NCBI RefSeq assembly: GCF_026571515.1
Contig: NW_026863859.1
Coordinates: 248,001 to 312,000 of the forward strand
DNA: 64,000 bases
From: Ruditapes philippinarum
Taxonomy: Eukaryota
Direction: 5' to 3'
Shown here: positions 39,001 through 48,000 of the stretch, one piece after another
Layout of the letters: each line of letters begins with the position of its first letter
Numbering within the stretch: position 1 is the stretch's first letter
Position numbers: made by a program

Positions 39001-42000
39001 AGGTATCCTTAGACTTTCTAATGTTTATCATTTTGTCAAGAGGTATTCATAGACTTTTACCAAAAGTTATTTTGCACTTAAAACCATATCAATATCTGGT
39101 CAAGTGTTAATTGAACGCTCAAAGATTGGTTATTTTTATTAATGGTCAAGAGACATGGTCTAATATTTCACCTTATGACTGCATTGGGAAGGTAATCAAT
39201 AAGGACGTCTGCGAAGTTGTTTCTTTATATGGTATTTCGTACCATGCTTTGACACACAACATAAATTATTCAGCAGAATGAAGACCTCTAGTTCGTTAAA
39301 TGAGATAATCTTCTCGCTTTTGTAATCTCTTGGGTTTCTGCAGAAAGGTGCGCGTGGCATTTATTGTCCATTCAGCATTTCTAAAAATAGCTAGTGTCAT
39401 ATGTATACAGGGAAACAGTAAATGAGTCGGAATGAGAACCAGCTTGGGTATTTGAGACCCAGCTTAGATAGTTGACATGAACATGTCATAACTAGAAACA
39501 CGTCTTTTATGTAAATGGAGGCAGAATTAGGTTTAAAAATATCATAATAGTTAACAATATTTTCCCTTTTTTGGAAAGCTTTTTATCATAATTGATAACC
39601 AATGAAATTGCTTAAAATTGGCAAGTTCTGTCGCGCTAAACTGTTTAAACGGGCTATAAAATAACCTAATGATGTATTGCAAACATATAAAATTGTCTGG
39701 ACTTTGAACTTTGTCACATTTCTGCGAATTTATAACCCTGTCAATCACTTCAAAGCTTCTTGTTGTGGAAACTGGGGTGCGGAAGGTGAGATGTGCTGTG
39801 TATGGGAGTAGGTTGAGAGGAAGGGTTGATAATCTTTGAGACACAAACTTGTCATATGTATTAAATTTACATAATTATGTAAAATGCGCCGAAATAGTTT
39901 GGAGTCATAGGTTCTTAATAATTTTGAAGTAACATTCGAGTAGAAACAGAATATAAAAAGTAAGAGATTAGCATGGTATAAAGTACGCGAGATAGTCACC
40001 AGGATATGCTTTTTTGTTTTTGTTTTTAAATATATTCATTTGATAACACAAGAAACTTGTTTCATATATTTTAATTTCCTTACATAATCAAGTTTCTGAC
40101 ATTACAAATTGATATTAATTAGAAACCAACATCTGCCGTTATGCAGATTACGCATCATAACTATAAATAACGTGTTAACAACGCTAAGTGAGGTGGTAAC
40201 CTGGAGGTTAGTTTATTGGCTTCTCTTTCACGGGGTCGTGGGTTTGAGCCCAATTAGGGGCAATACCGTGAACATGTTAATCCAGGGAGCGGACTGGACT
40301 CTTACAAATTTAAAGAGTTCCAATTAAAGGACTCTACAATTGGAAAATCCAATAAATTCCAAGATTTAATCTTAATCGCAATAAAACAAATAAAAAAATA
40401 CAATCAAATTAACTGACGGTCCTCTGTATATGAAGTAGATGGAAAATTTTGCGTAGACAATTATTGACAAGATTTTCCGTGCTTGACGTGACGACATCCA
40501 TTAATCGTTAAGGTGTACACTATTCTCATAAAAACTTTGATAAAACAATAACAGAGAGCTGGCCAGAAAGGTTTATGTATCAAATACAACAAGAACAATT
40601 GACAGGTATGTCGGATGATAAGCAAATAAAAACCTGGTATTGTCATGTTCGTGAAGTTGGCAGCCTAGCAGCCTAGCAGCCTAGCAGCCTGAAGTTGGCA
40701 GCCTAGCAGCCTAGCAGCCTGGCAGCCTGAAGTTGGCAGCCTAGCAGCCTAGCAGCCTGGCAGCCTAGCAGCCTAGCAGCCTAGCAGCCTAAAGAAAACT
40801 AAGAATAGTACATACATGAAAACCGTCTGAAATACATTAGTAGCACTTCTTTAGATCATTCCACGCCTTTTTCAATATCGTGATCTTTATTTTTTAAGAT
40901 GTTGAACTTTATCGTAACATATTTTTTTTCATTCTGACGCTTCGAAATTTGAAGTTAGCAGCCTAGCAGCCTAGCAGCCTGGCAGCCTAGCAGCCTGGCA
41001 GCCTAACAGCCTAAAGAAAACTACGGATAATACAAACATGAAAACCGACGGAAATGAGTCGGTAGCACATACTTAGACTATTCCACGTCTTTTTTCAGTA
41101 TCGCGAACTTTATTTTTTTAAATATTGAACTTTGCTTTTTTTTTTAATTTCCTCTTCGAAATTTGAGCAGCCTAGCAGCCTAGGCTGCCTGGCAGCCTAA
41201 ATAAAACTAAGAATAGTACAAACATGAAAACCGTCGGAAATACATTAGCAGCACTTCTTTAGATCATTCCACGCCTTTTTCAATATCGTGATCTTTATTT
41301 TTTAAGATGTTGAACTTTATCGTAACATATTTTTTTCATTCTGACGCTTCGAAATTTGAAGTTAGCAGCCTAGCAGCCTGGCAGCCTAGCAGCCTAGCAG
41401 CCTAGCAGCCTAGCAGCCTAGCAGCCTGGCAGCCTAACAGCCTAAAGAAAAGTACGGATAATTCAAACATGAAAACCGACGGAAATGAGTCGGTAGCACA
41501 TACTTAGACTATTCCACGTCTTTTTTCAGTATCGCCAACTTATCTTTTTTAAATATTGAACTTTGCTTTTTTTCTTTACTCTTCGAAATTTGTGAAGCTA
41601 TCAGCCTAGCAGCCTGGCAGCCCTAGCAGCCTGGCAGCCTAGCAGCCTAACAGCCTAGCAGCCTTGCAGCCTGGCAGCCTGGCAGCCTAAAGAAAACTAC
41701 GGATAATACAAACATGAAAACCGACGGAAATGAGTCGGTAGCACATACTTAGACTATTCCACGTCTTTTTTCAGTATCGCCAACTTAATTTTTTTAAATA
41801 TTGAACTTTGCTTTTTTTTTATTTTACTCTTCGAAATTTGAGCAGCCTAGCAGCCTAGCAGCCTGGCAGCCTAAATAAAACTAAGAATAGTACAAACATG
41901 AAAACCGTCGGAAATACATTAGCAGCACTTCTTTAGATCATTCCACGCCTTTTCAATATCGTGATCTTTATTTTTTAAAGATGTTGAACTTTATCGTAAC

Positions 42001-45000: not shown

Positions 45001-48000
45001 TAAAGTTTCGCGATACTGAAAAAAGACGTGGAATAGTCTAAGTATGTGCTACCGACTCATTTCCGTCGGTTTTCATGTTTGTATTATCCGTAGTTTTCTT
45101 TAGGCTGTTAGGCTGCCAGGCTGCTAGGCTGCCAGGCTGCTAGGCTGCTAGGCTGCTAACTTCAAATTTCGAAGCGTCAGAATGAAAAAAATATGTTACG
45201 ATAAAGTTCAACATCTTAAAAAATAAAGATCACGATATTGAAAAAGGCGTGGAATGATCTAAAGAAGTGCTACTAATGTATTTCAGACGGTTTTCATGTA
45301 TGTACTATTCTTAGTTTTCTTTAGGCTGCTAGGCTGCTAGGCTGCTAGGCTGCCAGGCTGCTAGGCTGCTAGGCTGCTAGGCTGCCAACTTCAGGCTGCC
45401 AGGCTGCTAGGCTGCTAGGCTGCCAACTTCAGGCTGCTAGGCTGCTAGGCTGCTAGGCTGCCAACTTCACGAACATGGTATTGTCGGGGAGAGATTTCTG
45501 TGTAATGGCAACATAAAGTAAATTAAAGTGTATCAACATAGACATCATCAGACTAATGACTTAATCAATTCTGAGTACATAAAAACCTCGACACAAAGAC
45601 ACTTCATTTACAGACCACCGCTCTTACTGGCCATATGTAAACCTTGGAACTTGTTTTTCTTTAAAGACCATACAAATTTACATACCACATTGAGAAAAAC
45701 TTTTAAGTAAAATAATAAGTGTTTAAACACCATGTGAGTAACCATCGCTTTAACGGATACCTCTGTTTACAGGCTACATACAAAACTACTTAAAGAACAC
45801 TTCAGTTTACTAATACATACAGAAAGGATCACATCAACAAATCATTCTCCGCTACAACTTTCATTTTTTACAGGCCATATTTGTGCAGAAACACGTTTTA
45901 AGGGGCTCGTAGAATGTCATAATGTTTCTTCATATATTCATATATGTTTGTCACATTTTATTCAGTTTTGTTCACTGCAAACGGAATATAGTGGGAAAAA
46001 CAAACAAACAAACAAACAAACAAACAAACAAAATCCCCCCCAAAATCATCTTGCTTGCGGTATTACTTGTCGACAAAGACCATGTATATTCTTCTTTATT
46101 CTTCTTCCAAACAATGGCCTTTATTGAGAAGTTTTAGCATACTCTTAATTGTAAAATGTCCCTAATCATCCAAATATCGGTTTTAAAATGTGGAACACTA
46201 AATTTGCCAATGATTTATAAAGAGACTCCACTGAGTTTTTAAATACTTTTTTTTTACATGACGGGATGGAAAATATGATTTATGTCTTATCCAATAACTT
46301 GTGTGCACATTTTCAGCTTATTCCCTTAACCATGTTTTACCAGAATAATCTCTTTTATTTTAAAAAATGGCAAAAACATGAAAAGCGTTGCAACGCTTTT
46401 CACTCAATTCCGGCCAAGACTTACTTAAAAATGGATTTTCCATTTAATTCAGAGTACATTTCTTTGTTCTCCTTTGCAGATTTTTCCATTCTAAGCGCTT
46501 CACTTGATATTTATAAGATTTTCAAATTTTATGTTTTTATTCCTCTAGTTCTCAGCTGAGTTCCTTTAAACAATCAGTATAAATAGCGCTGTGTTTACGT
46601 TACAATATAAATTCTACAGGCAATAAACATAAGTGCAAACTGCAAAGAAAAAAAAATGTTTTAGCCTACATTTGTTAAGACTTGGAAATAAGACAGGGTA
46701 ACGATACACTTGAACCAACCAGTCTATTATAGATGTTGCTATATTTAGATTATTTATTCTCGCATACAGCGCTTGTAATTGCTTTTTTACTCGTGTGAAA
46801 TAGCTTGTAAAACCGGATTATTTCAGTACGGCTTATTGCAGAGGTTATCAATGACTCATATGTGTAATATGTAAACAGTGTAAACGATTTCGCGAAGAGG
46901 ATGAATTTCATTACTTGTTTGAATATAACTTGTTTTAAATTCTATTCAAAAACAGTTTATTGATTCATAATTCTCAAATCATTGTTACATTTATAAATTA
47001 GAATCTTTAATAAATAGTTCTGATCACTTAATTTTATTAAAACTTGCGTTATTCTGCAAATATTATTATTTCAAAATTCAAATATCTCATTCTCCTGTAT
47101 GACATGATTTTTAAGCTTATTTTGTTACCTTTGTATTGTTGTATTAACATATAAATAATTTAGATAGCATTAATGTACGAAAAATCGTGTCCAAAGAGTA
47201 TAGAAAAATCAAATACCTATATGTGTTATATGTGTTAGTCAAAAATCTTCTCATTTTATAAAATTTCAAGTATTTATATTTCGTTAATCACTTTTGAATA
47301 ACTGTATACATTGTTCTAAACTTTTTATAGCCTTGTGCATATAATATGCCTTGGTTTTGAATAAAATCTTGAAATCTTGAAATTAATAAATGTCGCCAAT
47401 GAAGCTTTCAACATATCAACATATAATACTAATTGAGTTGCATATTTAATTAATATTTTCAACAAAGAACAACGAACACAATTATAAATAGTTTATATAA
47501 GAATAGACAAATTAGTATTTCAGTTTTTATTATCGATATTTTTGGACAATCTCCACACCCTTGGGACAATTAAGGGACTTTCGCGATGTATGCGCAAAAG
47601 ACTGGGAACTTTCATATGAAGTGGTCTCTTAGATAGATTCTAAGTATGAAATATTATAAACAGTACAACAATAACAACAACACTTAGTCTAGACGATCGA
47701 GAATTTGTTTTCCTTTCTTTCAAGACTTTTGGAAATGGCACTTGTCTCTATTGGGCATGGAAAAAAAACACCAGCAATTCGTGTTTACAAAAACAAAAGG
47801 CAAACAAAATTGCTAGAACAGTAAAAATATGACAAAACATACCGTAGAATAAAATGTTACAGTTATAATTGGGTTACTTAAAAGTTCGAACTAATAGGAA
47901 TACATAATAGTCATAGTCCGAACCCACGGTACACAATCCGTATAATATTATACTACATTTACGGATACTGCTATCCTGGGTTACCGAGCGTAACTTAATG

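What the first reader, a model, noticed from the sequence alone, without database searches (positions are those of the whole stretch)
40637..45484. Young 4.8-kb foldback transposon with CATG ends and exact target duplication, possibly P/Galileo-like
Seen: near-perfect inverted arms of ~1.7-1.8 kb around an ORF-less ~1.3-kb core. The boundary can be read as CATG...CATG with a 7-bp duplication (GTATTGT), or as ATG...CAT with a 9-bp duplication (GGTATTGTC). Established: P-superfamily elements have CA...TG ends and 7-8-bp duplications, and Drosophila Galileo is a foldback member with 7-bp duplications. Mutator-related foldbacks give 9-11 bp. Inference: a recently mobile non-autonomous foldback family, more likely P-type. 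As a giant palindrome inside a predicted intron it could form kb-long dsRNA or promote rearrangement.
Basis: partly seen in the sequence, partly recalled or inferred. Interest (0 to 1): 0.75.

Follow-up and report, generated by a model that had tools for sequence, protein, structure and literature searches.

The report
Non-coding foldback transposon in a mollusc
This is a 4.8-kb non-coding "foldback" jumping gene inserted in a mollusc genome, an ordinary example of a known kind of element whose transposase family cannot be told from this single copy.

Summary
The insertion is real. Window 40645-45476 (4,832 bp) is bounded by an exact 9-bp direct repeat, GGTATTGTC, and by identical inverted tips. 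It has a 1,826-nt left arm, a 1,696-nt right arm and a 1,310-nt core with no ORF and no Pfam match.

The arms are not plain near-perfect repeats.
- Each arm is a tandem array of 7-8 subrepeats of about 190-245 bp.
- Each subrepeat is headed by a run of GCAGCCTR octamers, 62 in the left arm and 55 in the right.
- The outer 720/729 nt of the two arms show no substitutions, and the outer ~956 nt show two. Further in, the unit order differs.

This is the classic Foldback architecture. The closest described analogue is Tetris of Drosophila virilis.

The transposase superfamily stays open.
- The boundary coincidences favour the 9-bp reading about 10:1, which fits MULE/Phantom.
- The 7-mer GTATTGT matches the Galileo target consensus GTATTAC at 5 of 7 positions.
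- Some P elements make 8-9-bp duplications.
- My estimate is MULE-type about 0.5, P-type about 0.25.

"Young" and "inside an intron" are not shown. No other copy could be sought, because no eukaryotic DNA collection was open. This is a new member of a known kind, of low to moderate interest.

The parts
40636..40644 (.). Left copy of the target-site duplication, GGTATTGTC. In the 7-bp reading it is 40637-40643, GTATTGT.
   Evidence: this 9-mer occurs only here and at 45477; the chance of 9/9 identity is about 1e-5.
40645..40792 (+). Left terminal domain: a 15-nt unique tip, ATGTTCGTGAAGTTG, then about 3.6 copies of a 38-bp repeat made of GCAGCCTR octamers plus a TGAAGTTG spacer.
   Evidence: the gapless inverted repeat with the right end is perfect for 114 nt.
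40645..42470 (+). Left arm, 1,826 nt. It holds 8 tandem subrepeats of about 190-245 bp in the order A B A B' B A B' B (the last cut at the core). Each is headed by 2-11 octamers, 62 GCAGCCTR in all.
42471..43780 (.). Non-coding, non-palindromic middle domain, 1,310 nt and 29.8% G+C. It contains a T31 run at 43267-43297.
   Evidence: no ORF longer than 72 aa; 11 core ORFs have no Pfam match above cut-off; no Rfam family and no tRNA; unique in the window; length and composition.
43781..45476 (-). Right arm, 1,696 nt, the inverted counterpart of the left arm. It holds 7 subrepeats, read from the tip as A B A B' A B plus a degenerate unit, with 55 octamers on the opposite strand.
   Evidence: in the predicted fold, 1,590 of the 1,826 left-arm nt pair with this arm.
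45322..45476 (-). Right terminal domain: about 3.8 copies of the 38-bp repeat plus the 15-nt tip, the mirror of 40645-40792.
45477..45485 (.). Right copy of the target-site duplication, GGTATTGTC. In the 7-bp reading it is 45478-45484.

Best explanation
Window 40645-45476 is one insertion of a non-autonomous Foldback-type class II (cut-and-paste) DNA transposon in a mollusc genome.

Shown:
- Sharply defined identical inverted tips.
- An exact flanking direct repeat.
- Two long arms built from tandem subrepeats and octamer arrays.
- A non-coding middle domain.

Inferred mechanism:
- A transposase encoded elsewhere in the genome binds the many reiterated motifs in both arms. The candidates are the GCAGCCTR arrays and the conserved parts of the ~200-bp units.
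- It synapses the two ends, excises the element and joins it to a staggered cut in the target. Repair of that cut gave the duplication.
- The arms grow, shrink and reshuffle by slippage and unequal exchange among their subrepeats.
- Intramolecular pairing or gene conversion keeps the outer ~0.7-0.95 kb identical.

On superfamily, I read the duplication as 9 bp and the partner as most likely a MULE (Mutator/Phantom-type) transposase. My probability that this is a foldback transposon insertion is about 0.9. My probability that it is MULE-mobilised is about 0.5, and that is the confidence given here for the whole statement.
For: Structure:
- The tips are unique to the two ends.
- A 9/9 direct repeat abuts them. 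The chance is about 1e-5.
- The arms are tandem arrays of about 190-245-bp units, with 62 and 55 strand-specific octamers. Only 2 octamers occur in the other 59 kb of the window.
- The core has no ORF, no Pfam match, no Rfam family and no tRNA.
- The outer 720/729 nt of the arms have 0 substitutions.
- The core is asymmetric and the arms differ in unit number. Together with the duplication, this argues against an assembly palindrome.

9-bp / MULE reading:
- The boundary coincidence probability is 0.278 for the 9-bp reading against 0.027 for the 7-bp reading.
- MULEs typically have TIRs over 100 bp and 8-10-bp duplications. Muta1 is a foldback-type MULE whose subterminal repeats strengthen transposase binding and cleavage (PMC5499845 passages).
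- Tm1 has FB-like composite TIRs, mostly 9-bp duplications and a Phantom/MULE transposase (PMC3169594 passages).
- Tetris has TIRs with ~220-bp tandem repeats, a non-coding middle and 8-10-bp duplications. It was assigned to Mutator, and its authors state that most foldbacks seem to be Mutator (PMC4079207 passages).
- MULE is among the commonest DDE classes in bivalves, with 39 curated consensus elements and no P consensus listed (PMC10294476).
Against: - No transposase and no second copy were seen, so the superfamily rests on one ambiguous boundary.
- The 7-mer GTATTGT matches the Galileo target consensus GTATTAC at 5 of 7 positions and GTANTAC at 4 of 6. Only 2.0% and 4.5% of window 7-mers score as well.
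- Under the 7-bp reading the ends are CATG...CATG. I recall that these are the ends of the canonical P element, but I did not check this here.
- Galileo also has long TIRs with ~210-bp internal tandem repeats that carry THAP-binding sites.
- A P element and its MITE BuT5 give 8-9-bp duplications, so even a true 9-bp duplication does not exclude P.
- A palindromic target preference reaching beyond the duplication would weaken the coincidence argument.
- Multi-copy status, which defines a transposon family, could not be tested. There is no other copy in the 64-kb window, and no eukaryotic DNA collection was open.
Confidence: 0.5

Rival explanations
1. [quoted passage not shown] The ends are CATG...CATG, the duplication is the 7-bp GTATTGT (or 8 bp with one unpaired end base), and the element is mobilised by a THAP-domain P-type transposase that binds repeated sites in the arms.
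For: - The 7-bp reading is formally valid.
- GTATTGT matches the Galileo consensus GTATTAC at 5 of 7 positions. Only 2.0% of window 7-mers score as well.
- Galileo TIRs reach 1.2 kb in D. mojavensis, with ~210-bp internal tandem repeats, and over 4 kb in D. willistoni. The repeats hold extra THAP-binding sites.
- Foldback elements are reported in both the MULE and the P superfamilies.
- I recall that the canonical P element ends in CATG, but I did not check this here.
Against: - This reading needs two independent flank coincidences, G before and C after the target, with probability 0.027 against 0.278 for the 9-bp reading.
- The Galileo target motif is palindromic (GT...AC, with AANGT/ACNTT halves). 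Here only the 5' half matches: the 7-mer ends in GT rather than AC, and the flanks CTG and CGG do not fit AAN and NTT.
- The papers read describe Galileo only within Drosophila.
- The bivalve survey lists no curated P consensus.
- The consensus match was noticed after the fact.
Confidence: 0.25
2. It is a foldback-shaped non-autonomous element of some other or undescribed DNA-transposon lineage that makes 8-9-bp duplications, such as Merlin- or hAT-like. The foldback architecture would have arisen independently by TIR expansion.
For: - Authors of the Tm1 paper state that FB-like structure evolved independently in different transposase lineages.
- Nothing in the window ties the element to any transposase.
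- 8-bp readings are formally possible, each with one coincidence of probability about 0.16-0.17.
Against: - The 8-bp readings require ends that are out of register by one base.
- The survey found Merlin rare in bivalves, with 63 ORFs and 3 curated consensus elements.
- From recall and unchecked: hAT ends usually follow a YARNG pattern, which CATGT or ATGTT do not fit.
- In the papers read, the named superfamilies of foldback elements are MULE and P.
Confidence: 0.15
3. It is not a transposon. It could be an inverted duplication of a dispersed satellite-like array, an assembly artefact (a palindromic mis-join), or two head-to-head tandem-repeat-carrying Helitron/Helentron derivatives of the kind common in bivalves.
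For: - The window is rich in minisatellite arrays, and bivalve genomes carry many TE-borne tandem repeats (PMC7492417 passage).
- Four of the five indels between the outer arms are homopolymer-length differences that could be read errors.
- Only one copy was seen.
Against: - An exact 9-bp direct repeat sits precisely outside identical 22-nt tips that are not part of the repeating unit.
- The 1.3-kb centre is unique and non-palindromic, and the arms have unequal numbers of units. A fold-back mis-assembly would be symmetric and would have no duplication.
- From recall: Helitrons make no target duplication and lack long TIRs.
- There are no N runs inside the element. The nearest are 37479-37764 and 49162-49538.
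Confidence: 0.05

Closest known systems
Tetris, a foldback transposon of Drosophila virilis (PMC4079207, passages read)
   Same: - TIRs with a terminal domain followed by a variable number of ~220-bp tandem repeats.
- A middle domain with no coding capacity.
- 8-10-bp duplications.
- No autonomous partner known.
- Superfamily inferred from duplication length alone.
   Different: - The host phylum differs (insect against mollusc), and no sequence relationship was tested.
- Here every subrepeat is headed by an octamer array and two unit types alternate.
- Tetris also has a distinct inner TIR domain.
- Tetris repeats have expanded into satellite arrays. That was not examined here.
Tm1 of Meloidogyne and Muta1 of Aedes: foldback-type MULE/Phantom elements (PMC3169594; PMC5499845)
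   Same: - Composite TIRs made of short tandem motifs.
- Mostly 9-bp duplications with no clear target consensus (Tm1).
- Non-autonomous derivatives.
- Subterminal repeats shown to enhance transposase binding and cleavage (Muta1).
   Different: - Their arms are much shorter. Tm1 uses 13-15-bp repeats, and Muta1 has a 145-bp TIR with nine subterminal repeats.
- Their MULE transposases are known. None is known here.
Galileo: a P-superfamily, foldback-like element of Drosophila (PMC3573991; PMC4168063; PMC3688188)
   Same: - Long, internally repetitive TIRs, with ~210-bp tandem repeats in some subfamilies.
- Unequal repeat numbers in the two arms.
- Many copies consist of two TIRs only.
- The 7-bp target consensus GTATTAC / GTANTAC is shared in part by the GTATTGT seen here.
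   Different: - The direct repeat here is 9 bp.
- The 3' half of the palindromic Galileo target motif is absent.
- No THAP or P transposase was found.
- Galileo is described only within the genus Drosophila in the papers read.
Drosophila melanogaster FB, the founding Foldback element (recalled, and as cited)
   Same: Long inverted arms made of tandem subrepeats around a variable middle. The 9-bp duplication is recalled and was not checked here.
   Different: I recall that FB subrepeats are short (tens of bp). Here there is a two-level hierarchy of 8-bp arrays inside ~200-bp units. I did not compare sequences.

Membership tests
Foldback-type elements (structural class) | Long terminal inverted repeats that make up most of the element | tested here: met
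   The arms are 1,826 and 1,696 nt of a 4,832-nt element. In the predicted fold, 1,590 of 1,826 left-arm nt pair with the right arm.
Foldback-type elements (structural class) | Arms internally built of tandem subrepeats, variable in number between the arms | tested here: met
   There are 8 and 7 units of about 190-245 bp, octamer arrays of 2-11 copies, and a 38-bp terminal repeat.
Foldback-type elements (structural class) | Non-coding or variable middle domain | tested here: met
   The 1,310-nt core has no ORF longer than 72 aa and no Pfam match above cut-off.
Foldback-type elements (structural class) | Flanking target-site duplication | tested here: met
   GGTATTGTC is present at both ends, 9/9 identical.
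Foldback-type elements (structural class) | Dispersed multi-copy family | not testable with these tools
   - The window holds one copy only.
- The only open DNA collection is prokaryotic. The 22-mer tip gave 0 hits, and a 20-mer unit pattern gave 2 single chance hits.
- A protein-level search with an arm ORF found only low-complexity matches.
Mutator / MULE superfamily (including Phantom and FB) | 8-10-bp (typically 9-bp) target-site duplication | tested here: inconclusive
   A 9-bp direct repeat is present and is the more probable reading, 0.278 against 0.027. The boundary also allows 7 or 8 bp.
Mutator / MULE superfamily (including Phantom and FB) | TIRs longer than 100 bp | tested here: met
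   The criterion is taken from PMC5499845.
Mutator / MULE superfamily (including Phantom and FB) | Mobilised by a MULE-domain DDE transposase (with FLYWCH in Phantom) | not testable with these tools
   The ORFs scanned showed no MULE or FLYWCH domain. These were 68 ORFs of 75 aa or more across the window, and 150 of the 182 ORFs of 45-74 aa in the 26-64 kb stretch, the scanned ones reaching to about 57.8 kb. The rest of the genome is not available.
P superfamily (P, 1360, Galileo) | 7-8-bp target-site duplication (8-9 bp in one divergent lineage) | tested here: inconclusive
   The 7-bp reading is possible but needs two coincidences, with probability 0.027. The lengths are from PMC3698922 and PMC4168063.
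P superfamily (P, 1360, Galileo) | Palindromic target-site motif (Galileo GTANTAC within AANGT...ACNTT) | tested here: inconclusive
   GTATTGT matches 4 of 6 and 5 of 7 positions in the 5' half only. The 3' half and the flanks do not match.
P superfamily (P, 1360, Galileo) | THAP-domain P-type transposase partner | not testable with these tools
   The ORFs scanned showed no THAP or P-transposase domain. The rest of the genome is not available.
Helitron / Helentron carriers of tandem repeats (common in bivalves) | No target-site duplication and no long terminal inverted repeats (recalled definition) | tested here: not met
   The element has a 9-bp duplication and kb-long inverted arms.

The most novel reading that the evidence does not exclude
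The element is a Galileo-like, long-TIR foldback member of the P superfamily living in a mollusc, with CATG ends, a 7-bp GTATT-type target and octamer arrays as THAP-binding sites. In the papers I read, Galileo is described only within Drosophila, so this would place that lineage in a mollusc. It would also suggest that its target preference is ancient.
Probability: 0.2. Interest if true: 0.5.

Novelty: new member of a known kind. Interest (0 to 1): 0.27.

Why it matters
Foldback transposons are known from insects, nematodes, sea urchins and plants. They matter because their long, internally repetitive arms can seed satellite DNA (Tetris) and promote inversions by ectopic recombination (Galileo, FB).

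In the open-access library searched, I found no description of a mollusc foldback family. In two searches, the four mollusc papers that contain the word 'foldback' use it only to cite Tetris. So a well-preserved mollusc example with a two-level repeat hierarchy is a useful seed for annotating that genome. It could also help find its autonomous partner and test whether TE-borne ~200-bp repeats feed the many dispersed satellite-like arrays of bivalves.

By itself, a single non-coding copy of a known architecture is not surprising. If it is transcribed, the arms could give near-perfect duplex RNA in stretches of up to 189 bp. That remains hypothetical.

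Tried and rejected
- Other copies in the window: none. I tried the tip 22-mer and 17-mer with up to 3 mismatches, a blastn of the whole element against the window, and an octamer-array scan.
- Other copies in public DNA: only the prokaryotic genome-contig collection was open. The tip 22-mer gave 0 hits. A 20-nt degenerate unit pattern gave 2 single hits in MAG contigs, and similarity was confined to 20-24 nt, which is about the number I estimated for chance from the collection's size.
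- Protein route to other copies: phmmer of a 59-aa arm ORF against 1.84 billion representatives gave 5 hits with E up to 1e-3, none with E up to 1e-10. The three I fetched were unrelated low-complexity repeat proteins.
- Transposase remnant in the core or a transposase elsewhere in the window. Pfam on 68 ORFs of 75 aa or more found only EF-hand exons. Pfam on 150 of the 182 ORFs of 45-74 aa in the 26-64 kb stretch found nothing above cut-off. The 32 not scanned lie at the far end, beyond about 57.8 kb. One core ORF gave a sub-threshold lysine-run match to PF19179, at 18.5 bits against a cut-off of 26.9.
- RNA genes: no Rfam family and no tRNA in the window.
- Nested MITE in the core: a gapped inverted repeat at about 42693-42780 and 43125-43200 scores only as high as the best of 300 shuffles. 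I left it as unproven.
- Intron claim: homologues of the EF-hand protein align only to 25731-25877 and 22311-22571. Their N-terminal 18-70 residues were not located, so I cannot say whether the gene reaches 40 kb. Long 'ORFs' at 28.6, 30.2, 48.5, 54.5 and 62.7 kb look non-coding or are translated minisatellites.
- Spliced model: the gene was examined exon by exon.
- Literal sequence search of the papers for the octamer array and the tip: 0 papers.
- Two key papers were not held: PMC2927773 (Phantom) and PMC2268567 (Galileo as a P element). What I say about them comes from papers that cite them.
- No supplementary files were consulted. The Galileo and Tetris duplication tables are in supplements I did not open.

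Full report
**1. What is there**

Reading window 40500-45650 shows the left junction ...aaaacctGGTATTGTC|ATGTTCGTGAAGTTGGCAGCC... and the right junction ...GGCTGCCAACTTCACGAACAT|GGTATTGTCgggg.... Three results fix the ends.
- The 22-nt tip occurs exactly twice in the 64-kb window, once at each end and on opposite strands. It occurred 0 times in 100 shuffles.
- The 17-nt tip with up to 3 mismatches finds the same two sites only.
- The 9-mer GGTATTGTC occurs only at 40636 and 45477. Given the window's composition, a 9/9 match at a fixed pair of positions has a probability of about 1e-5.

So the element, its ends and its flanking duplication are real. In the 9-bp reading the element is 40645-45476, which is 4,832 bp. 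In the 7-bp reading it is 40644-45477.

**2. Anatomy**

The arms are not simple inverted copies.
- Each arm starts with a 15-nt unique tip.
- Next come about 3.6 copies of a 38-bp repeat, made of four GCAGCCTR octamers plus a short spacer.
- Then come tandem units of about 190-245 bp. Each unit has an octamer array of 2-11 copies and a 150-180-nt spacer.
- The spacers are of two kinds, A and B, about 74% alike, plus a B' variant.
- Read from the tip, the left arm runs A B A B' B A B' B, with the last unit cut at the core. That is 8 units and 1,826 nt.
- The right arm runs A B A B' A B plus a degenerate unit. That is 7 units and 1,696 nt.
- The left arm holds 62 GCAGCCTR octamers on the plus strand. 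The right arm holds 55 on the minus strand. The core holds none, and the other 59 kb of the window holds 2.

The agreement between the two arms falls off inward.
- The gapless perfect inverted repeat is 114 nt.
- With gaps, the outer 720/729 nt have no substitutions and five indel runs: one octamer and four homopolymer differences of 1-2 nt.
- The outer 956/957 nt have two mismatches and eight gap runs.
- Further in, the arms are out of register. BLAST gives 92% identity over about 1,230 nt with 18 gap openings.

'Near-perfect arms of 1.7-1.8 kb' is therefore true only for the outer ~0.95 kb.

The core, 42471-43780, is 1,310 nt and 29.8% G+C.
- It is not palindromic and is unique in the window.
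- It has no ORF longer than 72 aa, no Pfam match above cut-off in its 11 ORFs of 45-72 aa, no Rfam family and no tRNA.
- A weak gapped inverted repeat inside it is no better than the best of 300 shuffles.

**3. Artefact or transposon**

A fold-back mis-assembly would be symmetric and would carry no target duplication. Here the centre is unique, the arms have different unit counts, and the duplication sits exactly outside tips that are not part of the repeating unit. There is no N run inside the element. The nearest are 37479-37764 and 49162-49538, and I left them untouched. I put the non-transposon readings together at about 0.05.

**4. Host and surroundings**

The only coding signal found in the window is an EF-hand, calmodulin-like gene on the minus strand.
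- I searched one exon on its own. It has 43 relatives, and the best named ones are molluscan: Gigantopelta 72%, Dreissena and Potamilus 71%, Pinctada 68%. The host is therefore a mollusc, probably a bivalve.
- Those relatives align to 25731-25877 and 22311-22571 only. Their N-terminal parts were not located.
- Among the ORFs scanned between 26 and about 58 kb, none has a Pfam match above cut-off. The longer 'ORFs' are low-complexity sequence or translated minisatellites.

Whether the element lies in an intron therefore remains unverified.

**5. Which transposase family**

The boundary allows several readings.
- 9-bp reading (ATG...CAT): the only coincidence is that the first and last bases of the duplication are complementary. 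The probability is 0.278 from composition and 0.274 empirically.
- 7-bp reading (CATG...CATG): the genomic base before the target must be G and the base after it must be C. The probability is 0.027 from composition and 0.028 empirically.
- 8-bp readings: each needs one coincidence of about 0.16-0.17, plus ends that are out of register by one base.

On the sequence alone, the 9-bp reading is favoured about tenfold.

The literature points the same way.
- MULEs typically have TIRs over 100 bp and 8-10-bp duplications. Muta1 is a foldback-type MULE (PMC5499845).
- Tm1 combines FB-like composite TIRs, mostly 9-bp duplications and a Phantom/MULE transposase (PMC3169594).
- The Tetris authors state that most foldbacks seem to belong to Mutator (PMC4079207).
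- In a survey of mollusc genomes, MULE ORFs are among the commonest DDE classes. The curated library has 39 MULE consensus elements and lists no P consensus (PMC10294476).

Some evidence points the other way.
- The Galileo target consensus is GTATTAC in D. willistoni and GTANTAC across species (PMC4168063).
- Our 7-mer GTATTGT matches 5 of 7 and 4 of 6 positions. Only 2.0% and 4.5% of window 7-mers score as well.
- However, only the 5' half matches. The palindromic 3' half (AC, then NTT) and the 5' flank (AAN) do not, and I noticed the match after the fact.
- Galileo also has long TIRs with ~210-bp internal repeats.
- A divergent P element and its MITE BuT5 make 8-9-bp duplications (PMC3698922). 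So 9 bp would not by itself refute P.

My estimates are MULE-type about 0.5, P-type about 0.25, another lineage about 0.15, and not a transposon about 0.05.

**6. How it most likely works**

Shown: the architecture described above.

Inferred by analogy:
- The reiterated motifs in both arms act as multiple binding sites for a transposase supplied in trans. This was demonstrated for the THAP domain of Galileo (PMC3688188) and for Muta1, where more subterminal repeats strengthen binding and affect cleavage.
- The transposase cuts at the tips and integrates into a staggered target cut, giving the duplication.
- The difference in unit number and order between the arms fits slippage and unequal exchange within the arrays.
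- The zero-substitution outer parts fit intramolecular homogenisation. For that reason, arm identity is not a clock for the insertion.
- The intact 9/9 duplication excludes only an old insertion.

'Young, recently mobile' is therefore plausible but not shown.

**7. Hairpin potential**

RNAfold of the whole 4,832 nt gives -3,220 kcal/mol. In that fold, 1,590 of the 1,826 left-arm nucleotides pair with the right arm. Uninterrupted helices reach 106, 178, 178 and 189 bp. Nothing here shows that the element is transcribed, and rearrangement potential is only an analogy with FB and Galileo.

**8. Searches for relatives**

- There is no other copy or octamer array in the window.
- The only open DNA collection holds bacteria and archaea. 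The tip gave 0 hits. A degenerate unit 20-mer gave two isolated matches with no wider similarity.
- An arm ORF searched against 1.84 billion protein representatives gave five weak hits, and the three I looked at were unrelated low-complexity proteins.
- The text of the paper library holds neither the tip nor the octamer array.
- Two searches for foldback elements in molluscs turned up four mollusc papers containing the word, all of them only as citations of Tetris. I recall that repeat databases list foldback entries for many animals. I could not check this, so I do not claim that the family is undescribed.

**9. Verdict**

This is a well-preserved, non-autonomous Foldback-type DNA transposon in a mollusc genome. 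It is a new member of a known kind.
It overstates the perfection of the arms and misses their repeat hierarchy.
- The P/Galileo preference is not supported over MULE.
- 'Young' and 'intronic' are unproven.
- Interest is low to moderate, 0.27.
- The boldest reading not excluded is a Galileo-like P element outside Drosophila, at a probability of about 0.2.

Noticed in passing
window 22311-22571 and 25731-25877, minus strand: Two exons of an EF-hand, calmodulin-like gene. The best named relatives are molluscan at 58-72% identity, and unnamed records reach 82-95%. The N-terminal exon(s) were not located.
   Followed up: partly
window 2975-4027; 9809-10088; 10330-11275; 13928-15903; 38784-39058; 53310-53893; 54509-55001: A dense set of minisatellite arrays, with periods of 22/44, 55/110, 52, 46, 40, 29/44 and 24 bp. 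The 46-bp array and the 55-bp array at 9.8 kb share a motif. The 24-bp array accounts for the 237-aa open frame at 54479-55189.
   Followed up: no
window 11605-11841 and 55451-55645: Two small hairpin-like inverted-repeat elements, one with 103-nt arms at 97% and one with 51-nt perfect arms. Both have TGAGCCRCGTCAYGAC-type ends, so they are probably one MITE family. Their duplications were not resolved.
   Followed up: partly
window 35544-35826 and 24462-24633: Two further short inverted-repeat structures, one with 125-nt arms at 89% and one with 49-nt arms at 98%. The second lies between the two EF-hand exons.
   Followed up: no
window 42693-42780 and 43125-43200: A weak gapped inverted repeat inside the foldback core, with exact 13-14-nt cores at 42706-42719/43184-43197 and 42758-42770/43140-43152. 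Its score only equals the best of 300 shuffles. It could be a decayed nested element.
   Followed up: partly
window 569-719, 7578-7778, 37479-37764, 49162-49538: Four runs of N. They were left as they are, and none touches the element.
   Followed up: no
window 41165-41204 and 44911-44952: In the third unit of each arm, one octamer is inverted (GCAGCCTAGGCTGC). This makes a small local palindrome that is conserved in both arms.
   Followed up: no
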